Source of the DNA: a virus
DNA length: 50,946 bases
Strand: one strand, 5' to 3'
IMG/VR virus record: IMGVR_UViG_3300039098_000131
Location: 1-50,946 of that record
Shown: piece after piece, positions 4,318-23,038 of the stretch
Layout of the letters: every line of letters starts with the position of its first letter
Position numbering within the stretch: the stretch's first letter is position 1
Made by a program: the position numbers and the translations under genes
Notes under the pieces: model-generated
Told to the model about the DNA's origin: nothing
The model's database searches: none
The model's input: only the letters and a program-made list of their open reading frames with translations

Positions 4318-5610
4318 CTAGATTGCCACTCGTCTTATTTTAGCCCTGCCACCCTTGATTGGAAATAGCTTCGCAATCGGGTAAGTGCCGGCGTCTGTTA
4401 TATCATCAAATTTGCCAACGCCCTTTTCTGGCATGCCGTTGTCATCATAGGCTTGCTGTTCAAGAGCTTCAGCGAAGTGCGGTGCCTCGAAGTCATTTAC
4501 CAGCAACCGACGCTGATCCATACCGTTGCAAAGCATGGCGTTTGTTGCTGTCACCCTGTCTTTTATATTAGGGTTAGACTCATTCCTCACAACATGAAAG
4601 CCCGCTAATTGCAGGAGCTTAATATCTGAGGTCGTGGCATTAATCGATTTCCTGTTCTTACCCGTTGCGTCTGGGATTACTGTTATTCCGTGGTCACCCC
4701 ATCTTTCCTGGACCGCCCTTATGCTCCCGGGTGTGTCAATGGTATTGACTAATTCTCCTACCGCGCAAAACCCCTGTGGTCTCCGAACATAAGCAACGAC
4801 GCAGCCGCGCCCGACGTTGAAGTCCATTCCCAATATGAGGTGGTCGCCTTTACGAATAGTCTCCCGGGTACGATTGAGTGTCCGATCATACGAGGTCCAC
4901 ACCCTGCCAGATGTTAAGTTCGTGAACTCTCCATTTATATATGCCTGTATGAGCTGTGGCGGATAGTTGGCCTTTAGTTCGTCAATATAATCATCTGGCA
5001 GGTTGTGAATGTTCGAGTAAGTACTCATTTGAATTAGCAACGATTTCTTTAACGGCTCTTGCTTAAACATTTGATATGTAGCACGGTAACCCTCTGGCGT
5101 AGTAAATGCCGCCATCTGGTTTTTCTTTCTAATTTTCTTTGTCTTGCCGCCGCCCGGTAATTTCATCTTCTTAGCTGGGAATTTGTATCGGCAACGAGCT
5201 TTGCACTTTCGCCAGCCCTCAAGAGCAATATCCGTTTTGAGAATGTCCATTTCATCGAGCAGGAAATCCCCTACTTCGAAACCAACAATCTTACCAGGAT
5301 TGGACAATGATCGGCAAACGATCTTCCCAAGGCCAGCAACAGTAACCACATGATCCCCTCTTGATACATGAATCCGGTAGTTGTGGGTTTCGGCGTACTC
5401 TTCTAGCGCTGGGTACCAAATATCTTTAATCAGGCCATAAGTTGGTGCCGCATATCCGACAGGGACACCCGGGAAGTCTCGTAACAATTTGAAAGCCTTA
5501 ATAACAGCGGTATAGGTCTTGCCTGAACCGAAGCCGGCAACCACAGCCGTTGACTTAGCGCGTGACCAATAGGCCGCGCTCTGAGGGTTAGATAGCTCAA
5601 TCCGTCCCAT
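4318..5610 (-). CDS. terL: Terminase large subunit
   Basis: Walker A-like VVAGFGSGKT near the N-terminus, Walker B-like FLLDEMD, and a C-terminal nuclease-sized domain. 430 aa, upstream of the portal. Confidence 0.88.
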   Translation of the reverse strand: MGRIELSNPQSAAYWSRAKSTAVVAGFGSGKTYTAVIKAFKLLRDFPGVPVGYAAPTYGLIKDIWYPALEEYAETHNYRIHVSRGDHVVTVAGLGKIVCRSLSNPGKIVGFEVGDFLLDEMDILKTDIALEGWRKCKARCRYKFPAKKMKLPGGGKTKKIRKKNQMAAFTTPEGYRATYQMFKQEPLKKSLLIQMSTYSNIHNLPDDYIDELKANYPPQLIQAYINGEFTNLTSGRVWTSYDRTLNRTRETIRKGDHLILGMDFNVGRGCVVAYVRRPQGFCAVGELVNTIDTPGSIRAVQERWGDHGITVIPDATGKNRKSINATTSDIKLLQLAGFHVVRNESNPNIKDRVTATNAMLCNGMDQRRLLVNDFEAPHFAEALEQQAYDDNGMPEKGVGKFDDITDAGTYPIAKLFPIKGGRAKIRRVAI

Positions 5611-6040
5611 CGAGATTATACTCCTTCTCAGGGTTAGAGGTGACTACCTCATGATATTCTGTTAATCTAGTGGTACCGGCCTCGCCGGCTAACCGTTTGA
5701 TCTCAGCAATGACTTTGGCGTTCTGGTGGAACCCATAATGATTCAACAGTTTATCATGTACCTGATTATCAAACCAGGCCTTGGCTAAATTGTATACCTT
5801 TATAAATGATTTCTTTTCTTTTTTCTTGAGATCATCTAAATCCAGAAACAACACATGGCCACATGCTGTATCTGGACTTGATGATTTACGTGCTTGGAAG
5901 AACACTTGAGCAAGTGCCTTTTTACATAATCGCCCCGTGGCCAGGGTGGTTAGTCGCATACGCAGAGCCCGGTCTTTCGCCTCGTCCTTGTCGAGGTGAT
6001 CCCAATACTCTTTATCTGTGCATAACGATCTTTTGGCCAC
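5597..6040 (-). CDS. Putative terminase small subunit
   Basis: 147-aa ORF that overlaps the terL start. GTG start with AAGGA upstream. The call rests on position only. Confidence 0.45.
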   Translation of the reverse strand: MAKRSLCTDKEYWDHLDKDEAKDRALRMRLTTLATGRLCKKALAQVFFQARKSSSPDTACGHVLFLDLDDLKKKEKKSFIKVYNLAKAWFDNQVHDKLLNHYGFHQNAKVIAEIKRLAGEAGTTRLTEYHEVVTSNPEKEYNLDGTD

Positions 6041-16512: not shown

Positions 16513-17232
16513 ATGGCCGATATACTCACACTTCAAAATCGACTTAATTATGTTCTGCTATCAGGTGGAATTGATTCAGCAACAGTACTTGCCAAACTCA
16601 TAAACGCTGCCAAAGTTTGCCAGGGCGCCCAAATAGTGGCGGTTATTATAAAATACCCGTCAAAGCACAACGCATGGGAAAGGGCCGCTGCTAAAAACAT
16701 AGCAAAGCACTACGGGGTTACCTCAATGGAGATTGATCTTACTGGTGTATTCGATGCCTTTGGATCTGCCCTGCTTACCAATTCCTCGGCCGAAATTCCA
16801 GAGGGCCATTACGAAGCCGAGTCCATGAAAGCAACGGTGGTCCCACTTCGAAACATTATTTTCTCGGCAATTGTTGCTGGAAAGCTCACCACCGTTGCAG
16901 GGCCTATGCCTTTCTCGCTCTGGTTGGGCGTGCATGCCGGCGACCATGCTATTTACCCGGATTGCAGGTTCGGCACAATCCGCTCTTTGGCTCAATGCTT
17001 ATTTGAGGGTACCGACAATCAATGCTTAATCCAGGCACCACTTATCAACGTGGATAAAACCACTATCGTAAACATTGGACTTGAAATAGATGTCCCGTAT
17101 GAACTCACTCGAACCTGTTATACCTCAAGAGGTTTGCCATGTGGAAAATGTGGCTCCTGCACCGAGCGGTTAGAGGCATTCGAGAAGAACGGTGTTACTG
17201 ATCCAGTAACGTATCAAAATAGTAAAGGTTGA
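16513..17232 (+). CDS. queC: 7-cyano-7-deazaguanine (preQ0) synthase QueC
   Basis: PP-loop LLSGGIDSAT and a C-terminal zinc site, CYTSRGLPCGKCGSCTERLEAF. 239 aa. Confidence 0.88.
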   Translation: MADILTLQNRLNYVLLSGGIDSATVLAKLINAAKVCQGAQIVAVIIKYPSKHNAWERAAAKNIAKHYGVTSMEIDLTGVFDAFGSALLTNSSAEIPEGHYEAESMKATVVPLRNIIFSAIVAGKLTTVAGPMPFSLWLGVHAGDHAIYPDCRFGTIRSLAQCLFEGTDNQCLIQAPLINVDKTTIVNIGLEIDVPYELTRTCYTSRGLPCGKCGSCTERLEAFEKNGVTDPVTYQNSKG

Positions 17233-17279: not shown

Positions 17280-17393
17280 TTCACAGGCTGGCAAGTAACA
17301 ATCAGTAATTTACCTGGATAGTAATCGAAGCCCACCCTGGTTTGGGCACCTGTGAATCGGTTACTATCCGGGTATCTTTTTCCAGGAGTAATT

Positions 17394-18104
17394 ATGGCGG
17401 TTGAATACACGACAACCCGTGATAGTATCAAGTCGGTTAATACCTTAGTGTATGGCCCGTCCGGTGTCGGGAAAACTAAACTCATAAAAACACTCCCGAA
17501 ACCAGTTATTATCAGTTCCGAAAAGAAAAACATAGTCATAGCCAAGTACGACATTCCGGTTATGCTAATTAAAACACTTGAGGACCTACAGCAGGCAATC
17601 AAGGATATCCAGGCTAACACGCATGGGTTCACTGAATGTTGCTTGGACTCAGCAACAGATATTGCCAAGACCTGTTTATCAGAGAAGAAGAGGAACGCCA
17701 AGGACGCCCGGAAAGCGTTTTATGATACTCAAGACGAGATTATGGATTGCATTCGTAAGTTACGGGATTTGAAAATTCACACTTATGTAATTGCTCAACA
17801 CTCACTAATGATGGATGCGGCTGGCCTGAGGATCAACATGCCCTCCATGCCCTCAAAAGCGATGACCGAAGAATTGCCGTTTATGTTTGATGTGGTAATG
17901 GCAATGCAAGTCGATAAAGCGGATAAGCGTTGGTTGCAGACTTCGCTATCATCTACATGGTACGCCAAGGATAGTTCTGAGGCCCTTAACCCTGTGGAAA
18001 AACCTGATCTAGGAAAGATATTTCAAAAGATCGCAAACTCTTTGGAGAGAAACAATGGCAAAAAAGGACAAAAAGGGAAAAAAGGAAAAAAAGCAAAAAA
18101 ATGA
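17394..18104 (+). CDS. Sak4-like / AAA_24 RecA-fold ATPase (recombination)
   Basis: Walker A VYGPSGVGKT 20 residues from the start, 236 aa, with a K-rich tail. The start at 17394 (AGGAG upstream) is preferred to the GTG at 17352. Confidence 0.7.
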   Translation: MAVEYTTTRDSIKSVNTLVYGPSGVGKTKLIKTLPKPVIISSEKKNIVIAKYDIPVMLIKTLEDLQQAIKDIQANTHGFTECCLDSATDIAKTCLSEKKRNAKDARKAFYDTQDEIMDCIRKLRDLKIHTYVIAQHSLMMDAAGLRINMPSMPSKAMTEELPFMFDVVMAMQVDKADKRWLQTSLSSTWYAKDSSEALNPVEKPDLGKIFQKIANSLERNNGKKGQKGKKGKKAKK

Positions 18105-18621
18105 TGCCTTTGACCAACCCGTAAATGGTGAGGGACCAATAACTGCTGGTGATTCCACACCCAAAACTTTTGAAGCGCTTCCAACCAGTGTTCAACCAGC
18201 CCAGCTGGTGAAATGCGAAAGAAAGCCAACCCGGGATGGGAACGGGGAGTTGATGAATGCACAGTTCAAAATCATTGATGGCGAGTTCAAGGGTCGGACC
18301 ATTTTCAATAACGCGAACCTGGAAAACCCAAATGAGCAAACGGTTGAGATTGCTATTGAGCAGCTGAAAAACCACGTAGCCGCTGCCGGGCTGGAAAGCA
18401 TCGATTCCAAGTGGGATTGGACCCCGTTGCTGAATGTCCCAGTAATGATCCATGTCAAGTTCGAAAAAGGGGACGACCAATACCCAGACAAGAACAGTGT
18501 TAACGGTTTTTCCCCTTACGAGCAACACAATGGCAGTGTTGACAAGGCCGCGAAAAAGAAGGGTAAGAAAAAAGGCAATGGGAAAAAGGATAAAGGCAAG
18601 CCAGGGTGGTCTAAAAAATAA
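18055..18621 (+). CDS. DUF669-like protein (SSB-like partner of Sak4)
   Basis: Lies directly after the AAA_24 gene. The core reads FKIIDGEFKGRTIF.N.NL.N. K-rich N- and C-termini, with GGAG 7 nt upstream of the ATG. Confidence 0.5.
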   Translation: MAKKDKKGKKEKKQKNDAFDQPVNGEGPITAGDSTPKTFEALPTSVQPAQLVKCERKPTRDGNGELMNAQFKIIDGEFKGRTIFNNANLENPNEQTVEIAIEQLKNHVAAAGLESIDSKWDWTPLLNVPVMIHVKFEKGDDQYPDKNSVNGFSPYEQHNGSVDKAAKKKGKKKGNGKKDKGKPGWSKK

Positions 18622-19451
18622 TGCTTTTAACCGGCCCAGCGATACAAAATGAAATTAACCGCACTCTGGAGGTGAGCGAAATCGAGTTCCCAAGGACATA
18701 TCTCGGTATGTCCTCAATGGGACATCCTTGTATGAGAAAGTCATGGTTCAACTGGCGGTGGTATACACCGGAGGCTTTCTCGTCAAGGATGAAGCGGTTA
18801 TTCAAGCGTGGTCATAACGAAGAAGAACGGTTTATTGATCACCTAAGATTAATTGGCATAAAGGTTGAGGAAATCGACCCGGCCACAGGCGAGCAGTTCG
18901 AGTTCATTTCCAGCGATGGTCATTGCATGGGTCATTGCGACGGAAAAGCATCTTACAGGGGCTTCCGGTATTGTGCGGAGTTCAAAACACACAACAAAGC
19001 ATCCTACAACCAAGTACGTAAAATCCAGGATGTCAAGCTTTCTTTTCCCACTCATTATTACCAAGGTCAAAGGTACATGCATGAGATGGGAGTTGACTAT
19101 TGCATATATGGTGCTGTATGCAAGGACAACGATTCTTTACACTGGGAAGTTTTCAAAAAGGATATGGCTTCGGTTCGTTGGTTGCAGGACCGGGAAAAGT
19201 CACTCATTTTCGCAACAACAGTACCACCAAAGTTATCACAGCGACCGACTTACTATCAGTGCACTTGGTGTTGGTTTAAGGGTATTTGCCACGGGGGCCA
19301 AGAGCCTTGGCGTACCTGTCGGAGCTGCATTAGTGGCGCGCTCGTTGATAACGGGGGATGGGTATGTCTAAAAAGAAAAAAGGAAAGAAAACTAAGTCTA
19401 AACGAGCAGCTAAGGGGCTGCAAGAAACACAGCTTTATCTCAGGCCTTTAA
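18621..19451 (+). CDS. Cas4-like PD-(D/E)XK exonuclease with an Fe-S cluster motif
   Basis: Nuclease core GHCDG ... AEFKT. An N-terminal Cys (GHPCMRK) plus CTWCWFKGIC (CX2CX5C) matches the Cas4/AddB 4Fe-4S pattern. There is an extra C-terminal CRSC..C..C module. Confidence 0.7.
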   Translation: MLLTGPAIQNEINRTLEVSEIEFPRTYLGMSSMGHPCMRKSWFNWRWYTPEAFSSRMKRLFKRGHNEEERFIDHLRLIGIKVEEIDPATGEQFEFISSDGHCMGHCDGKASYRGFRYCAEFKTHNKASYNQVRKIQDVKLSFPTHYYQGQRYMHEMGVDYCIYGAVCKDNDSLHWEVFKKDMASVRWLQDREKSLIFATTVPPKLSQRPTYYQCTWCWFKGICHGGQEPWRTCRSCISGALVDNGGWVCLKRKKERKLSLNEQLRGCKKHSFISGL

Positions 19452-19593: not shown

Positions 19594-20013
19594 ATGCAAA
19601 CAGCAAGTAAGGACTTCACTTTCGAAGCCGCCCACCGTCTCCAAAAGCATGCAGGCGAATGCCGAAACCTACACGGCCACACCTACAAAGTACGGGTAAC
19701 AATCACGGCCGGGTGCCTTGACGCCATGGACATGATTATGGATTTCAGCCATATCAAAAAGATAGTGTGGAATGAGGTGCTTTCTGGCTACGATCATTGT
19801 ACAATACTCGAGATAAGCGACCCACTTTATGACCTGCTGAAGGGTGAGGACATAAAGGTCATGCCTTACAACTGCTCCCCGACTGCCGAGGCAATGAGCA
19901 TGTACATTTTCAACCAGATTACTTTTGCTTTAAAAGGTTGCGGTGTGCAACTCGTTTCGGTAATAGTTTGGGAAACTCCCGATAATTTTGCCACTATGGA
20001 AGCCACCAAATGA
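19594..20013 (+). CDS. queD: 6-carboxy-5,6,7,8-tetrahydropterin synthase QueD
   Basis: FTFEAAHRL ... CRNLHGHTYKV, the PTPS/QueD signature. ATG at 19594. 139 aa. Confidence 0.88.
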   Translation: MQTASKDFTFEAAHRLQKHAGECRNLHGHTYKVRVTITAGCLDAMDMIMDFSHIKKIVWNEVLSGYDHCTILEISDPLYDLLKGEDIKVMPYNCSPTAEAMSMYIFNQITFALKGCGVQLVSVIVWETPDNFATMEATK

Positions 20014-20723
20014 AATCGAAAGGACTCAAGCCTTTTTACAGCAACAGAAATGCCGGGAAGAAGTTAAAAACCGGGGAAACGCTTTACATTGACGAGATTT
20101 TTGGTTCGATACAAACGGAGGGGCCATTCAGTGGAAACCCTGCAATCTTTGTCCGTCTTTTCGGGTGTAGCCTGAACTGTGGTTTCTGTGACACACCGCA
20201 AGAAGACGAAGCCAAGAAAATGAAGGTAAAGGAAATAGTCATGCGGGTTGAGTCAATAGCGGATGACTATGACAACGGTGCCAATACCAATTTGGTTGTT
20301 ATTACCGGAGGAGAACCGTTCCTGTATAACATGGGGCCGTTGGTAGGTGAGTTACTGGCCAAGAAATTCTGGGTTCAATTCGAAACCAGCGGTTCAGTTG
20401 CACCAAAGGGATTGACATTACCCATGGAAGGGGTTAGAATAATCACATCCCCAAAAACTGCTAAAATAGACAAGCAGATTGAGAAAAACACCCTTGCTTT
20501 CAAGTATGTTGTTGACGTAAAACACTGCTCTAAAAAAGACGGGTTACCGGAGGGTGTTTACAGACCGAAGGAAAAGGACTCAGGGCGGGTGATGGTATCA
20601 CCTAAATTTGTAGAAAAAAGCAAACAGAAAACGGAGGATAATATAGCCAATGCGGTAAAGGTCTGCAAGCGGTACGGGTATTGGTTCACGCTTCAGTATC
20701 ACAAATTAATCAACATTGAATAG
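20010..20723 (+). CDS. queE: 7-carboxy-7-deazaguanine synthase QueE (radical SAM)
   Basis: FGSIQTEGPFSG ... FVRLFGCSLNCGFCDT (CX3CX2C cluster motif). ATGA overlap with queD. Confidence 0.85.
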   Translation: MKSKGLKPFYSNRNAGKKLKTGETLYIDEIFGSIQTEGPFSGNPAIFVRLFGCSLNCGFCDTPQEDEAKKMKVKEIVMRVESIADDYDNGANTNLVVITGGEPFLYNMGPLVGELLAKKFWVQFETSGSVAPKGLTLPMEGVRIITSPKTAKIDKQIEKNTLAFKYVVDVKHCSKKDGLPEGVYRPKEKDSGRVMVSPKFVEKSKQKTEDNIANAVKVCKRYGYWFTLQYHKLINIE

Positions 20724-20730
20724 GTGCAAA

Positions 20731-20910
20731 ATGAAAATTGGCAATCTGGTGGAACAGGCTCAGGCAGAATTGAAGGCCGAAAAAGTACGGAAAGGCGTCG
20801 ATCTTTTAAAAGGCCGAATAAAGGAGCTCGACTCACTCAAGGCAGCGATAGCCGTCGCTGAGTCCCAACTTGAAGACCTTGTAGACAAGGACTTGGACGA
20901 TGTTTTTTAG
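20731..20910 (+). CDS. Small coiled-coil protein, unknown function
   Basis: 59 aa from the ATG at 20731 (AGGTG upstream). Lies within the que/dpdA cluster. Confidence 0.4.
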   Translation: MKIGNLVEQAQAELKAEKVRKGVDLLKGRIKELDSLKAAIAVAESQLEDLVDKDLDDVF

Positions 20911-21259
20911 TAGCATTAAGGATTTCCAATTAATTGGTGGGGGGGACAAACTCGTCCTCCTCTGGAAGGATGACGACGGGGTGGAGCATGGGTGCGTTAT
21001 TAATGAGCCTTTCCTGGAATCCTTGTCTCAACAAATGGAATACGTTGAAATAAGCTGTATGGGTTTGCGTGAACCACAAAGCATCCCAGCCGGGTTATCC
21101 ACAGCAACAGTATCCTTGATCTCAAACCAACTCGAATACGTTACCGGGAAAGACCTGGCCAAGCGTTTCGACCCTGCACTTAAAAAGTCGGTTCAGGAAT
21201 TGACCGACATAATCCTTGACAAATTGAAGGAACGAGATGAAAATCCGAAAGATATCTAA
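20900..21259 (+). CDS. Hypothetical protein within the deazaguanine cluster
   Basis: 119-aa ORF overlapping both neighbours. No motif recognised. Confidence 0.5.
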   Translation: MFFSSIKDFQLIGGGDKLVLLWKDDDGVEHGCVINEPFLESLSQQMEYVEISCMGLREPQSIPAGLSTATVSLISNQLEYVTGKDLAKRFDPALKKSVQELTDIILDKLKERDENPKDI

Positions 21260-22112
21260 CGATGAAGTAACAATTAGATGCGCTGAGATTGCCAACAGCC
21301 TCCCAAAGCACCAGCTATTTTATGGTGTTCCCCGTGGAGGAATAGCACCCGCCTATAGCATTGCGGCAATGTCCGAAGGCGGGGTGGTGGATTCGCCAAA
21401 TCTTGCCGACTACATTGTAGACGACTTGATTGATTCAGGAGCAACACGGTCCGAGTACATTTCCAGGTATCCGCATAAAAAATTTATTGCCTTATTCGAA
21501 AAAGAGGATAACACTGAGTGGTTCGTTTTTCCTTGGGAAGTAACCAAAGATAATAAGGATGAATCCGGCGAAGACATTTTCCTCCGTTTGCTTCAATTTG
21601 TTGGTGAAGACACTAACCGGGAGGGACTGGTTGAGACACCAGCTAGGATGGCTAGGATGTACAGGGAAATTACTTCTGGTTACGCTGAAGACCCATCCAG
21701 TTATTTCAAAACATTTAGTGAAAATGCTGAAGGGTATGACGAAATGATAATTCTCAGCCCTATTCCATTTTTCTCAATGTGCGAACACCACATGGCCCCG
21801 TTCTTCGGGACTGCTACCATAGGTTACATCCCGGACAAGCGTTTTGCTGGTCTTAGCAAGTTCGCCCGGGTAGTAGAAACGTTTTCCAAACGTCTTCAGA
21901 TTCAGGAAAGACTAACCCACCAAATTGCTGAGTGCATCGATGATTATGTGGCACCATCCGGTGTTGCTGTTGTTGTCAAAGCGCGCCACCTCTGTATGGA
22001 AATGAGAGGGGTCCGTACCCACGATGTGTATACAACCACGTCCGCATTGAAGGGTGTTTTCCTGGATCAGCAAGAAACAAGAAACGAGTTTTTGCACCTG
22101 ATAAAGGACTGA
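21237..22112 (+). CDS. folE: Fusion protein: N-terminal type-I phosphoribosyltransferase-like domain plus GTP cyclohydrolase I (FolE)
   Basis: The N-terminal part has GVPRGGIAPAY, YIVDDLIDSGATR (PRPP-binding motif) and WFVFPWE, which resembles Gpt. The C-terminal part has GLVETPARMARMY, CEHHMAPF, GLSKFARVVE, QIQERLT and HLCMEMRGV (FolE). Confidence 0.85.
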   Translation: MKIRKISNDEVTIRCAEIANSLPKHQLFYGVPRGGIAPAYSIAAMSEGGVVDSPNLADYIVDDLIDSGATRSEYISRYPHKKFIALFEKEDNTEWFVFPWEVTKDNKDESGEDIFLRLLQFVGEDTNREGLVETPARMARMYREITSGYAEDPSSYFKTFSENAEGYDEMIILSPIPFFSMCEHHMAPFFGTATIGYIPDKRFAGLSKFARVVETFSKRLQIQERLTHQIAECIDDYVAPSGVAVVVKARHLCMEMRGVRTHDVYTTTSALKGVFLDQQETRNEFLHLIKD

Positions 22113-22114
22113 AA

Positions 22115-23038
22115 ATGAAAATCTACATGGCGGGCGGATATTCGATGGGCCTCCATGGTTACCTCTCAAACCCGGCTTATATTGACCGCGAGATTTACAA
22201 GCGCCATTATAAGTCGGTACCAATTCTCGAGTCGTATCATTACATCCAGAATGAGAAAATATTCCCCTCTGTCAGGAAAAACAAAGATTCCATATTTCTT
22301 GATTCAGGGGCTTTTTCTATGTTCACTCAGGGGATTGAGGTTAACCTCCAGGCTTATGCAGACTTCATCCGAAAGAACAGTAAACTGATACACATAGCAT
22401 CCAACCTGGATGTTATCGGCAAGGGTAACGAAAAAGCAACCTATAAAAATCAGAAAACGCTTGAGAGCATGGGTGCAAAAATTGCTCCTGTACATCATGC
22501 AAGGGACAAGGACAAGTGGCTTGAGCGCTACTTAAATGACGGGTACGAGGACATCTTTTTAGGTGGCATGGTTCCTGAATCTGCGGTATATTTAAAGGAG
22601 TGGTTAGATCGAGTATGGGACCGATATCTTACGGACAAGAATGGGCATCCGTTAGTCCGGGTGCATGGGTTTGGCTTAACTACAGAATCATTGATGACAA
22701 GGTATCCTTGGTATTCGGTCGACTCCACAAAGTGGGCAATCGCTGCCGGAATGGGATCAATTTTAGTACCCCTCAATCGACCGGACAGGTTCTTTTGGCA
22801 GATCACTTTCTCAAGTCAGTCCCCGGCCAGGAAAAAGAGGAACCAACATATCCTGACCATAAGCGAGGACGAGAGGCGCTTGGTGAACAAATTTGTAAGG
22901 GACTTTGGCTTCAAACCGAAACAGCTCAGGAACAGCGCAGCGGTCCGGAGGATGTTCAATCTACTGGCTTTCCGGGAAATGCAACATAATTATCCCTGGC
23001 CTAAAACTTTCAGCAACAGTCATAGAGGACTTTTCTAG
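22115..23038 (+). CDS. dpdA: DpdA-family DNA transglycosylase (TGT-like, inserts 7-deazaguanine into DNA)
   Basis: IFLDSGAFSMF, VHGFGLT and YSVDSTKW, in a que gene context. 307 aa. Confidence 0.78.
   Translation: MKIYMAGGYSMGLHGYLSNPAYIDREIYKRHYKSVPILESYHYIQNEKIFPSVRKNKDSIFLDSGAFSMFTQGIEVNLQAYADFIRKNSKLIHIASNLDVIGKGNEKATYKNQKTLESMGAKIAPVHHARDKDKWLERYLNDGYEDIFLGGMVPESAVYLKEWLDRVWDRYLTDKNGHPLVRVHGFGLTTESLMTRYPWYSVDSTKWAIAAGMGSILVPLNRPDRFFWQITFSSQSPARKKRNQHILTISEDERRLVNKFVRDFGFKPKQLRNSAAVRRMFNLLAFREMQHNYPWPKTFSNSHRGLF

What the first reader, a model, noticed from the sequence alone, without database searches (positions are those of the whole stretch)
21237..22112. Phosphoribosyltransferase-like domain fused to GTP cyclohydrolase I, directly upstream of dpdA
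The first ~115 aa carry type-I PRTase hallmarks in the right order: GVPRGGIAPAY, the PRPP-binding motif YIVDDLIDSGATR, and WFVFPWE. This closely parallels the layout of E. coli Gpt (VSRGGLVPGA / VIDDLVDTGGT / WIEQPWD). The remaining ~175 aa are an unambiguous FolE, with CEHHMAPF, QIQERLT and HLCMEMRGV. The gene ends 2 nt before dpdA.

DpdA-type base exchange releases one free guanine for each deazaguanine inserted. A guanine PRTase fused to the first enzyme of preQ0 synthesis would therefore close a salvage loop: guanine to GMP, to GTP, to preQ0. That is inference. The domain could instead act on preQ0 or another 7-deazapurine base, or be a regulatory PRPP or purine sensor. I do not know of a described PRT-FolE fusion in the phage 7-deazaguanine literature.
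Basis: partly seen in the sequence, partly recalled or inferred. Interest (0 to 1): 0.78.

Follow-up and report, generated by a model that had tools for sequence, protein, structure and literature searches.

The report
Mini guanine-PRTase domain fused to FolE
A phage gene joins a stripped-down purine-salvage (phosphoribosyltransferase) domain to the first enzyme of 7-deazaguanine synthesis; the pairing is common in phages that swap guanine for deazaguanine in their DNA, and I found no paper that discusses it.

Summary
ORF 21237-22112 (+) encodes 291 aa. Residues ~108-291 are a canonical GTP cyclohydrolase I (FolE). Residues 1-~103 are a type-I phosphoribosyltransferase (PRT) fold whose closest relative by sequence and structure is E. 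coli Gpt/XGPRT. dpdA starts 2 nt after the stop codon, and QueC, QueD and QueE lie upstream.

- The domain is a "mini-PRT". The PPi loop (PRGG), the PRPP loop (DDLIDSGAT) and the Lys/Trp that align with Gpt's base contacts are invariant or nearly so. The catalytic flexible loop II hairpin and a hood segment are missing across the whole family.
- This is a large, essentially viral family: 1460 clusters at E≤1e-10. In all 45 informative viral loci it sits with DpdA. Stand-alone relatives occur in the two phages shown experimentally to replace all G (Cellulophaga phiST and Flavobacterium immuto_2-6A), yet the searchable literature never mentions them.

Best reading (about 0.42): a Gpt-derived guanine/6-oxopurine PRT that captures the guanine DpdA releases and returns it to the GTP pool that FolE draws on. 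Rivals are a non-catalytic ligand-binding domain and a TubE-like deazapurine PRT. Activity is untested. I class it as a new variant of known kinds, of moderate to high interest.

The parts
21237..21545 (+). N-terminal mini type-I PRTase domain (aa 1-103), Gpt/XGPRT-like
   Evidence: AF2 pLDDT 91.2, pTM 0.83. Foldseek PDB best hit E. coli XGPRT, TM 0.71-0.75, E 3e-7. NCBIfam NF006613 E 8.5e-7 and phrog_8995 E 6e-5. dN/dS 0.29.
21330..21341 (+). PPi-binding loop P32-R33-G34-G35 (Gpt S36-R37-G38-G39 equivalent)
   Evidence: Invariant in 120/120 fusion homologues. Aligns with Gpt SRGG.
21417..21446 (+). PRPP-binding loop V61-D62-D63-L-I-D66-S67-G68-A-T70
   Evidence: D62, D63, G68 and T70 are 120/120; D66 117/120; S67 114/120. 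Aligns with Gpt IDDLVDTGGT. The roles of this motif are described for HPRT loop III in PMC6783271.
21501..21539 (+). Purine-platform segment: K89 ... W95-F-V-F98-P99-W100-E101 (Gpt K115 ... W134-IEQPW-D140 equivalent)
   Evidence: W95, P99, W100 and E101 are 120/120; F98 119/120; K89 87/120 in the metagenome set and 37/38 in the viral-locus set. Alignment to Gpt.
21384..21410 (+). Short connector (aa 50-58, VVDSPNLAD) standing in for Gpt's beta-hairpin and flexible loop II (~25 residues absent)
   Evidence: The PRGG-to-DD spacer is 23-33 aa (mode 26) in 115/120 homologues against 48 in Gpt. Alignment with phiST, MaInes and Gpt, which keep the hairpin. The PRT HMM splits at this point on the MaInes protein.
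21558..22112 (+). FolE (GTP cyclohydrolase I, short type IA) domain, aa ~108-291, plus stop codon
   Evidence: PF01227 3.6e-70; TIGR00063 226.3 bits, above the 181.6 cut-off; phrog_2197 4e-70. C182-E183-H184-H185, H251, C253, Q221 and E224 are invariant in 120 homologues. Full-length AF2 pLDDT 94.6.
22115..23038 (+). DpdA-type DNA guanine transglycosylase, 2 nt downstream
   Evidence: phrog_887 3.8e-62. My DpdA HMM gives 266 bits. Weak NCBIfam DpdA hit.
20010..20723 (+). QueE (CDG synthase)
   Evidence: phrog_2076 3.2e-42; TIGR04322 1.9e-22; radical SAM PF04055.
19594..20013 (+). QueD (CPH4 synthase)
   Evidence: PF01242 7.6e-33; TIGR03367 93.2 bits, above the 89.25 cut-off. The gene call on the identical contig maps to these coordinates.
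16513..17232 (+). QueC (preQ0 synthase), separated from the rest of the cluster by a recombination module
   Evidence: PF06508 7e-46; phrog_1550 1.4e-50.
20900..21259 (+). orf119, unknown function, overlaps the start of PRT-folE by 23 nt
   Evidence: No Pfam or PHROG hit. Also called as a gene on independent contigs carrying the same protein.

Best explanation
The gene encodes a two-domain protein. The C-terminal two thirds are a catalytically intact GTP cyclohydrolase I (FolE), the first enzyme of preQ0 synthesis. The N-terminal ~103 residues are a minimal type-I PRTase derived from the Gpt/XGPRT lineage of 6-oxopurine PRTases. It keeps the pyrophosphate loop, the PRPP/5'-phosphate loop with its acidic pair, the Asp that aligns with the N7-directed general base, and the Lys and Trp that align with Gpt's purine O6 contact and stacking platform. 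It has lost the mobile loop II hairpin and most of the hood.

Proposed mechanism (inferred): DpdA frees one guanine for each 7-deazaguanine it inserts into DNA. The PRT domain binds that guanine with PRPP and makes GMP. This removes the competing product of the exchange, and after host Gmk and Ndk it refills the GTP pool that FolE consumes. The fusion, with 2-nt coupling to dpdA, ensures co-expression in fixed stoichiometry. It does not provide substrate channelling.

What is shown: fold, motifs, purifying selection, and strict genomic linkage to DpdA clusters. What is inferred: substrate identity, catalytic competence and physiological role. Confidence that it is a Gpt-like PRT fold fused to FolE is about 0.97. 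Confidence in the guanine-salvage function is the figure given below.
For: Fold and ancestry:
- AF2 pLDDT 91.2. The 47 Foldseek PDB hits with E<=1e-3 are all purine PRTs, with E. coli XGPRT best at TM 0.71-0.75.
- Gpt model NF006613 is the top NCBIfam hit for the window domain and for every relative tested: MaInes 94 bits, phiST 69, P0011 63, immuto 60.

Active-site conservation:
- P32 R33 G34 G35, D62 D63, G68, T70, W95, P99 W100 E101 are invariant in 120/120 fusions averaging ~42-45% identity. D66 is 117/120 and S67 114/120.
- dN/dS is 0.29 for the domain and 0.13 for FolE.

Linkage to base exchange:
- 45/45 viral loci with at least 3 kb on both sides encode DpdA on the same strand.

Independence from the end product:
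- D66, K89, W95, F98 and E101 do not change between QueC+, QueC- and QueF+ clusters. This fits a ligand common to all of them.

Separate-gene counterparts of the fusion:
- A separate PRT gene lies immediately upstream of folE in Flavobacterium phage immuto_2-6A.
- folE is followed by a PRT gene in Brevundimonas phage MaInes.
- A stand-alone PRT lies between QueC and a possible DpdA in L100.

Demand argument:
- phiST and immuto, which replace all G (302,000 and 345,000 modified bases per 1e6 nt; PMC10516641), both carry a stand-alone homologue.
- For this 51 kb, 45.8% GC genome, 15-30% replacement and a burst of 50-100 would free ~0.3-1.2 mM guanine per fL of cell (the replacement and burst values are assumptions).
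Against: - Loop II is absent in the whole fusion family. It is described as common to all HPRTs and as covering the active site during catalysis (PMC6783271). From general knowledge of 6-oxopurine PRTs, losing it should cost orders of magnitude in kcat unless another element compensates.
- The hood segment that shapes base specificity is also missing.
- The window domain does not reach the Pfam PF00156 threshold or the Gpt equivalog threshold.
- GMP is two kinase steps away from FolE's substrate, so salvage chemistry does not explain the fusion.
- Hosts normally already have Gpt or Hpt.
- K89 is replaced by Y, H or F in about a quarter of the metagenomic homologues.
- One phage contig (L090) has PRT-FolE but no detectable DpdA within 10 kb.
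- No biochemical data exist for any family member.
Confidence: 0.42

Rival explanations
1. Non-catalytic ligand-binding or scaffolding domain. The mini-PRT keeps the PRPP/nucleotide-binding loops but, lacking loop II and the hood, no longer turns over. Instead it senses a purine metabolite (guanine, GMP, PRPP or (p)ppGpp) and tunes FolE activity, or it mediates assembly of the FolE oligomer or docking to DpdA.
For: - Loop II and the hood are lost family-wide, and loop II is needed to cover the active site in HPRTs.
- The type-I PRT fold has been recruited as a regulator elsewhere: PyrR and PurR appear among the weak NCBIfam hits, and a Neisseria PRT-like protein with bound ppGpp (5vog) is among the Foldseek hits.
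- (p)ppGpp binds the same loops I and III in HPRT.
- A direct fusion to FolE is what an allosteric module would look like, whereas salvage gains nothing from fusion.
- The full-length model is rigid across the linker (pTM 0.82, linker pLDDT ~78).
- Stand-alone forms keep a helix that resembles FolE's first helix.
Against: - The residues conserved are the catalytic ones, not only the binding ones: the Asp aligned with the general base (D66, 117/120) and the acidic pair.
- The domain also exists as a separate gene, sometimes with no folE nearby (L100), which is odd for a FolE-specific regulator.
- Full-size relatives with loop II (phiST, MaInes) sit in the same kinds of phages. This suggests an enzymatic ancestor with the same role.
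Confidence: 0.27
2. 7-deazapurine phosphoribosyltransferase. The domain couples PRPP to CDG, preQ0 or another 7-deazaguanine base, as TubE/ToyH do in tubercidin and toyocamycin biosynthesis. The resulting deazaguanine nucleotides could be incorporated during replication, could serve as the real substrate for later tailoring, or could act as a buffer pool.
For: - Precedent: TubE is a CDG-specific PRT encoded with FolE, QueD and QueE homologues (PMC6112128).
- CDG is made in all clusters that carry the domain (FolE and QueE in 45/45, QueD in 44/45), so one search does not exclude it.
- In phiST and MaInes the full-size PRT lies next to a dNMP-kinase-like gene and ribonucleotide reductase, and the immuto cluster contains a thymidylate-kinase-like gene. 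That is the gene set a nucleotide-level route would need.
- phiST and immuto replace 100% of G, and DpdA3 could not be validated in E. coli (PMC10516641).
Against: - DpdA is present in 45/45 informative loci, and published work attributes insertion to post-replicative base exchange.
- Phages of the same subfamily as the fusion-carrying PaMx25 and NP1, such as iggy, show partial, motif-specific modification typical of DpdA (PMC10484667). Iggy itself was not among my N-domain hits.
- The Asp aligned with the N7-directed general base is conserved. By inference it has no obvious role with a C7-substituted base.
- The nearest curated relative is always Gpt.
- No sequence comparison with TubE or ToyH was possible.
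Confidence: 0.2
3. (p)ppGpp-insensitive salvage variant. The chemistry is the same as in the best explanation, but loss of loop II is adaptive. It frees the phage enzyme from the alarmone inhibition that shuts down host HPRT during infection stress.
For: Complete loop II deletion in B. subtilis HPRT abolishes tetramerisation and strongly ablates pppGpp binding (PMC6783271). Host HPRT and GMK are (p)ppGpp targets (same paper).
Against: Entirely inferential. E. coli XGPRT, the closest relative, is already only weakly inhibited. The activity of loop-deleted enzymes was not reported there.
Confidence: 0.08

Closest known systems
E. coli / Yersinia xanthine-guanine phosphoribosyltransferase (Gpt, XGPRT; PDB 1A95, 4JLS, 5XTK; NCBIfam NF006613)
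   Same: Same fold (TM 0.71-0.75) and the same order of elements: N-terminal strand and helix, SRGG/PRGG pyrophosphate loop, acidic pair plus D-[ST]-G-x-T PRPP loop, F-x-K strand, and the W-x-x-x-P-W-[DE] platform. It is the top curated sequence relative.
   Different: 103 aa against 152 aa. It lacks the beta-hairpin carrying flexible loop II (Gpt ~58-83), the Lys115-Trp134 segment and the C-terminal tail. It scores 24-29 bits against a 138-bit equivalog cut-off. It is fused to FolE and essentially confined to viruses.
Stand-alone phage PRTs of Cellulophaga phage phiST (gp064), Brevundimonas phage MaInes and Flavobacterium phage immuto_2-6A (gp211)
   Same: Same family by HMM (E 6.5e-19, 1.1e-17 and 1.8e-24) and the same W-I-V-[FY]-P-W-E motif. 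All are in phages with FolE/QueD/QueE-based 7-deazaguanine pathways. The best BFVD structural match is the phiST protein.
   Different: They are separate genes. phiST and MaInes keep both Gpt segments that the window domain lacks, and immuto lacks only loop II. phiST's copy lies in a nucleotide-metabolism module more than 8 kb from the CDG genes.
TubE / ToyH, PRPP-dependent 7-deazapurine PRTs of tubercidin and toyocamycin biosynthesis
   Same: A purine-type PRT encoded together with FolE, QueD and QueE homologues. It acts in a pathway that starts from GTP and passes through CDG (PMC6112128).
   Different: Actinomycete secondary-metabolite clusters without a transglycosylase. TubE is 194 aa and stand-alone. 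Its substrate is CDG, not guanine.
Canonical phage FolE in DpdA clusters (e.g. phages 9g, CAjan, iggy) and other domain fusions in the pathway (Gat-QueC)
   Same: The FolE domain is orthologous, and the cluster order QueE/QueC/QueD/FolE/DpdA is the one described for Queuovirinae (PMC10484667). Like Gat-QueC, an accessory domain is fused N-terminally to a core pathway enzyme.
   Different: Only about 10% of phage records with FolE carry the PRT domain (38 of 391). Other phage FolEs have no extension or an unrelated one (PSTCR7, Vid5). The PRT partner is not mentioned in these papers.

Membership tests
Type-I phosphoribosyltransferase superfamily (PF00156 fold) | Core alpha/beta fold with a parallel sheet | tested here: met
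   AF2 model pLDDT 91.2. The 47 Foldseek PDB hits with E<=1e-3 are all purine PRTs, TM up to 0.75, probability 1.0.
Type-I phosphoribosyltransferase superfamily (PF00156 fold) | PRPP-binding loop: hydrophobic strand, two acidic residues, then [ST]-G-x-T | tested here: met
   IVDDLIDSGAT at aa 60-70. D62, D63, G68 and T70 are invariant in 120/120.
Type-I phosphoribosyltransferase superfamily (PF00156 fold) | Pyrophosphate (loop I) motif after the first core strand | tested here: met
   P32-R33-G34-G35 is invariant and aligns to Gpt S-R-G-G.
Type-I phosphoribosyltransferase superfamily (PF00156 fold) | Pfam PF00156 profile match at gathering threshold | tested here: not met
   No Pfam hit at E<=1 for aa 1-115. 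Some homologues (P0011, P0086, PA5oct gp163) do carry PF00156.
6-oxopurine PRTs (HPRT/XGPRT) | Mobile loop II that closes over the active site during catalysis | tested here: not met
   The spacer is 23-33 aa against 48 in Gpt. The hairpin is absent in the alignment with Gpt, phiST and MaInes. The role of loop II is taken from PMC6783271.
6-oxopurine PRTs (HPRT/XGPRT) | General-base Asp in the PRPP loop, Lys contacting O6, aromatic platform stacking the base | tested here: inconclusive
   D66 (117/120), K89 (87/120; 37/38 in viral loci) and W95 (120/120) align with Gpt D92, K115 and W134.
Gpt / XGPRT equivalog (NCBIfam NF006613) | Whole-protein score at or above 138 bits | tested here: not met
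   23.8-28.6 bits, covering only aa 60-91. Full-size phage relatives reach 69-94 bits.
Any PRTase | PRPP-dependent nucleotide formation | not testable with these tools
   Needs an enzyme assay.
GTP cyclohydrolase I, FolE type IA (PF01227, TIGR00063) | Profile scores above curated cut-offs | tested here: met
   PF01227 235.5 bits (cut-off 27); TIGR00063 226.3 (181.6); NF006825 233.6 (174).
GTP cyclohydrolase I, FolE type IA (PF01227, TIGR00063) | Zinc and catalytic residues (Cys-x-His-His ... His-x-Cys, Gln/Glu) | tested here: met
   C182 E183 H184 H185, H251, C253, Q221 and E224 are present and invariant in 120 homologues. The assignment of roles is from established FolE knowledge.
Phage DpdA-type 7-deazaguanine DNA modification cluster | DpdA transglycosylase plus preQ0 synthesis genes (FolE, QueD, QueE, QueC) | tested here: met
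   DpdA 22115-23038 (phrog_887 3.8e-62); QueE, QueD and QueC identified.
Phage DpdA-type 7-deazaguanine DNA modification cluster | Modified base present in virion DNA | not testable with these tools
   Needs LC-MS of phage DNA. The window is a metagenomic contig.
TubE/ToyH deazapurine PRTs | Sequence relatedness and CDG/preQ0 specificity | not tested
   Sequences were not retrievable with the tools. Only the published function was consulted.

The most novel reading that the evidence does not exclude
The phage PRT family (mini-domain fused to FolE, and full-size stand-alone forms in phiST and MaInes) phosphoribosylates a 7-deazaguanine base such as CDG or preQ0. This would open a nucleotide-level, pre-replicative route to deazaguanine DNA that runs alongside or instead of DpdA exchange. 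It would explain how phiST- and immuto-type phages reach 100% replacement, and it would revise the current view that all 7-deazaguanine DNA modifications are post-replicative.
Probability: 0.15. Interest if true: 0.88.

Novelty: new variant of a known kind. Interest (0 to 1): 0.62.

Why it matters
7-deazaguanine DNA hypermodification is an actively studied way for phages to evade restriction and CRISPR. The published pathway has FolE, QueD, QueE, QueC, tailoring enzymes and DpdA. It does not account for the fate of the guanine released, or for the doubled demand on GTP.

A conserved, virus-specific PRT module was found with DpdA in every informative fused locus. It is also present in both phages I examined that replace all G. 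That makes it a candidate missing accessory step.
- If it salvages guanine, it adds a metabolic-economy layer to DNA hypermodification, and a way to pull a reversible base exchange forward.
- If it acts on deazapurines, it changes the accepted order of events.
- Either way, a naturally loop-less PRTase is a useful test case for what loop II contributes to catalysis.

There is a practical point too. Hundreds of database entries, and the PaMx25 reference annotation, label this protein only as GTP cyclohydrolase I or truncate it.

Tried and rejected
- **Chance motif resemblance:** rejected by structure prediction, Foldseek and family-wide conservation.
- **A degenerate PRT remnant in all long phage FolEs:** the Providencia PSTCR7 (338 aa) and Pantoea Vid5 (271 aa) FolE extensions partly aligned in tblastn. 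They have no PRT HMM hit and no motifs, so they are unrelated extensions.
- **PA5oct-type jumbo-phage 'Gpt' next to a QueE-like gene as a fourth clean example:** it is a PF00156 protein but lacks the W..FPWE motif and scores only 33.6 bits, so it is only distantly related.
- **HMM drift as the cause of the DpdA co-occurrence:** checked and excluded. The odd distances came from stop-to-stop ORF coordinates.
- **A cellular (non-viral) home for the family:** a scan of one genome for each of 185,579 species gave 8 loci, all MAG contigs, and at least one of those is clearly phage. The scan used one exact peptide pattern, so absence elsewhere is not proven.
- **Literature:** the combinations DpdA/deazaguanine/Queuovirinae with phosphoribosyltransferase/PRTase returned nothing relevant. 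Hutinet 2019 and 2023 and the iggy paper contain no 'phosphoribosyl', and the Hutinet 2023 supplements are not held.
- **Active-site geometry from the model:** coordinates are not exposed.
- **Identity of the 402-aa gene after the stand-alone PRT in L100 and of the ORFs around L090:** DpdA similarity was inconclusive or absent.
- **Rfam scan of the window, for example for preQ1 riboswitches:** nothing found.
Full report
**1. The observation**

The window has an ATG-initiated ORF at 21237-22112 (+) of 291 aa, and every quoted motif is in place. An AAGGA Shine-Dalgarno-like motif precedes the ATG. The TGA stop at 22110-22112 is followed 2 nt later by the ATG of the next gene, which has its own AAGGA inside the last folE codons.

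That next gene (22115-23038) is a phage DpdA-type transglycosylase (phrog_887 E 3.8e-62). Upstream on the same strand lie QueE (20010-20723), QueD (19594-20013) and QueC (16513-17232). QueC is separated from the others by a Sak4 / DUF669 / Cas4-exonuclease recombination module. Downstream are a sliding-clamp-like gene and a family A DNA polymerase. So the window carries a complete preQ0 pathway plus DpdA.

The window is a metagenomic phage genome with no close relative among 50,697 phage records. The identical protein is seen on seven contigs, up to 50.9 kb.

**2. The C-terminal domain**

Residues ~108-291 are FolE above all curated thresholds (PF01227 235.5 bits; TIGR00063 226.3 against a cut-off of 181.6). 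The CEHH, HxC and QxQE catalytic and zinc residues are invariant across 120 homologues. The full-length AlphaFold model is confident (pLDDT 94.6, pTM 0.82).

**3. The N-terminal domain is a PRTase fold of the Gpt lineage**

Sequence profiles give only weak, partial hits:
- NCBIfam Gpt model NF006613, E 8.5e-7, covering aa 60-91 only.
- phrog_8995 'phosphoribosyl transferase', E 6e-5.
- PDB XGPRT chains, E 0.003-0.02.
- No Pfam hit at all.

Structure settles it. With a 131-sequence alignment the domain models at pLDDT 91.2 / pTM 0.83. The 47 Foldseek PDB matches with E≤1e-3 are all purine PRTases. E. coli XGPRT is best (TM 0.71-0.75, probability 1.0), followed by Yersinia XGPRT, the Pyrococcus purine PRT, and the Sulfolobus and Helicobacter HGXPRTs.

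**4. Conservation**

In 120 full-length fusions from metagenomes (45-69% identical to the query), these N-domain positions are invariant: P32 R33 G34 G35 (pyrophosphate loop), D62 D63 G68 T70 (PRPP loop), and W95 P99 W100 E101. D66 is 117/120, S67 114/120, F98 119/120 and K89 87/120.

In codon alignments of 68 fused genes, the median dN/dS is 0.29 for the N-domain and 0.13 for FolE (dS is high, so the values are rough). The domain is under purifying selection, though less tightly than FolE.

**5. It is a stripped-down PRT**

I aligned the domain with E. coli Gpt and three phage relatives. The window domain lacks about 25 residues between helix 2 and the PRPP strand, which is the beta-hairpin carrying flexible loop II. 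It also lacks about 14 residues between the conserved Lys and Trp, which is part of the hood, and it lacks the C-terminal tail.

The short PRGG-to-DD spacer (23-33 aa against 48 in Gpt) holds for 115 of the 120 fusions.

The relatives form a graded series. The phiST and MaInes PRTs keep both segments. Immuto gp211 lacks loop II only. The fusions lack both.

Loop II is described as common to all HPRTs and as covering the active site during catalysis (PMC6783271). Its absence is the main reason for caution about activity.

**6. Distribution**

An exhaustive profile search of 1.84 billion representatives found 4627 clusters at E≤1e-3, 1460 at ≤1e-10 and 73 at ≤1e-30. Among the top 150, lengths are bimodal: about 125-175 aa and about 275-325 aa.
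- Many short ones are contig-end fragments.
- Genuine stand-alone forms exist, for example P0003 (118 aa, on 23 contigs).
- A few fusions carry an intein with an HNH nuclease inside FolE.

Among isolate phages, 38 records carry the domain: Pseudomonas Nipunavirus-type phages (PaMx25, NP1, JG012, JG054 and others), Vibrio VpKK5-type, and Stenotrophomonas, Xanthomonas, Sphingomonas, Variovorax and Flavobacterium phages. That compares with 391 records carrying a FolE.

The fusions among them are annotated simply as GTP cyclohydrolase, or carry no annotation. In PaMx25 the folE start is annotated too far downstream and an overlapping 'hypothetical protein' is called in another frame. The real ORF has an intact PRT domain (114 bits).

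A pattern scan of one genome for each of 185,579 species gave only 8 loci. All are MAG contigs, and at least one is clearly phage.

**7. Genomic context**

I fetched 80 IMG/VR loci (all fused) and built HMMs for DpdA, FolE, QueC, QueD, QueE and PRT by iterating from window, immuto and PaMx25 seeds. I checked the HMMs for drift.

Of the 45 loci with at least 3 kb on both sides of the gene:

| Gene | Loci with it (of 45) |
|---|---|
| DpdA (same strand) | 45 |
| QueE | 45 |
| QueD | 44 |
| QueC | 27 |
| QueF | 4 |

The residues expected to touch the base or catalyse (D66, K89, W95, F98, E101) are the same in QueC+, QueC- and QueF+ clusters. So the domain's ligand is probably something common to all these pathways, such as guanine, PRPP/GMP or CDG, and not the variable end product.

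Separate-gene counterparts of the fusion:
- **Flavobacterium phage immuto_2-6A:** a separate PRT gene (gp211) lies immediately upstream of folE within QueD-QueE-PRT-FolE-DpdA-DpdN-QueF.
- **Brevundimonas phage MaInes:** the order is RNR-RNR-dNMP kinase-FolE-PRT, with QueC/D/E 8 kb away. A 265-aa ORF next to QueE is a probable distant DpdA (hhalign 69.5%, E 4e-5, against 99.6% for a control).
- **L100:** a stand-alone mini-PRT sits between QueC and a 402-aa possible DpdA (hhalign 28.5%), with no FolE within 8 kb.
- **Cellulophaga phage phiST:** the PRT (gp064) is the best BFVD structural match. It lies beside a dNMP-kinase-like gene and RNR.

One exception: phage contig L090 has PRT-FolE, QueD and QueE but no detectable DpdA within 10 kb, and 12 kb of that contig was not examined.

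**8. Link to experiment**

Hutinet et al. 2023 report 302,000 dDG and 345,000 fdPreQ1 per 1e6 nt in phiST and immuto_2-6A. That is complete replacement of G, which they attribute to DpdA3, although DpdA3 could not be validated in E. coli (PMC10516641). Both phages carry a stand-alone member of this PRT family. The main text of that paper, of Hutinet 2019 and of the iggy paper never mentions a phosphoribosyl enzyme.

**9. Mechanism**

- **Shown:** fold, motifs, purifying selection, and linkage to DpdA clusters.
- **Established knowledge:** DpdA/TGT enzymes exchange a base and release free guanine. Each 7-deazaguanine costs one GTP through FolE. Gpt converts guanine plus PRPP into GMP.
- **Inferred:** the domain captures the released guanine.

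A rough estimate for this genome (23,343 G per duplex) gives 0.3-1.2 mM guanine per fL of cell at 15-30% replacement and a burst of 50-100, and about 2-4 mM at full replacement (the replacement and burst values are assumptions). That is comparable with nucleotide pools, so removing guanine and recycling it is a sensible job.

The weak points are these:
- Loop II is missing.
- GMP needs two kinase steps to reach GTP, so the fusion gives no channelling.
- Hosts already have Gpt or Hpt.

I therefore give the salvage function about 0.42. The rivals are a non-catalytic sensor or scaffold (0.27), a TubE-like deazapurine PRT (0.20; TubE is CDG-specific, PMC6112128), and a speculative sub-variant of salvage in which loop loss confers (p)ppGpp insensitivity (loop II deletion ablates pppGpp binding in HPRT).

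**10. Comparison and membership**

The domain works like, and descends from, Gpt-type 6-oxopurine PRTs. It is not a Gpt equivalog: it scores 24-29 bits against a 138-bit cut-off, and it lacks loop II and the hood. It belongs to the type-I PRT superfamily by fold and motifs, but it falls below the Pfam sequence threshold. The FolE half is a full member of its family.

**11. Novelty**

Both domains are known kinds, and so is the DpdA system. What is new is the architecture and the recurrent, virus-specific association of a Gpt-derived PRT with deazaguanine DNA modification. I found no description of this in 7.7 million PMC papers plus bioRxiv; subscription-only literature was not searchable. I class it as a new variant of a known kind, with interest 0.62.

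Noticed in passing
Proteins P0150, P0181, P0204 (homologues): Some PRT-FolE fusion proteins (349-583 aa) carry an intein, two of them with an HNH homing endonuclease, inserted in the FolE domain next to the catalytic region.
   Followed up: partly
L002 (Pseudomonas phage PaMx25, NC_041953) 4914-5816: The reference annotation starts folE at an internal codon and calls an overlapping 'hypothetical protein' (gp38) in another frame. The real ORF is ~297 aa with an intact PRT domain (114 bits to my PRT HMM).
   Followed up: yes
Viral loci L003-L082 (census): 18 of 45 informative PRT-FolE/DpdA loci have QueD and QueE but no recognisable QueC and no second QueD-like (DpdL) gene. The base these phages insert is therefore unclear: CDG, a host-completed preQ0, or something else.
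   Followed up: no
L096 3665-4681 (Providencia phage PSTCR7) and L097 3974-4789 (Pantoea phage Vid5): These phage FolE proteins have other N-terminal extensions (~150 and ~85 aa) that are not PRT-like and have no obvious family. Phage FolEs in DpdA clusters appear to acquire N-terminal domains repeatedly.
   Followed up: partly
L083 7989-12085 (phiST) and L084 1672-6486 (MaInes): The full-size phage PRTs sit beside a dNMP-kinase-like gene and ribonucleotide reductase. The immuto deazaguanine cluster also contains a thymidylate-kinase-like gene. This gene set would fit nucleotide-level handling of guanine or deazaguanine.
   Followed up: partly
L086 13861-14661 (-) (Brevundimonas phage MaInes, MAINES_00850): A hypothetical protein next to QueE is a probable unannotated, divergent DpdA (hhalign probability 69.5%, E 4e-5 over 113 columns).
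   Followed up: partly
Stand-alone homologues such as P0149, P0152, P0160, P0170: Stand-alone mini-PRTs of ~130-160 aa keep, after WxxFPWE, a helix resembling the first helix of FolE ('D..RLLQ') and then end in unrelated sequence. This suggests they arose by fission of the fusion, or that the helix packs on the PRT domain.
   Followed up: no
window 17352-19451: A Sak4-like annealase (17352-18104), a DUF669 SSB-like protein (18055-18621) and a Cas4-domain exonuclease (18621-19451) lie between QueC and QueD. The deazaguanine cluster is therefore interrupted by a recombination module.
   Followed up: no
window 20731-21259: Two small ORFs of unknown function (59 aa at 20731-20910, 119 aa at 20900-21259) lie between QueE and PRT-folE. 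The second overlaps the PRT-folE start by 23 nt. Both are called on independent contigs and have no Pfam or PHROG hit.
   Followed up: partly
L090 (phage contig binned in an Abditibacteriota MAG): PRT-FolE, QueD and QueE are scattered among structural genes (terminase, major head protein), with no detectable DpdA within 10 kb. This is the only such case seen.
   Followed up: partly
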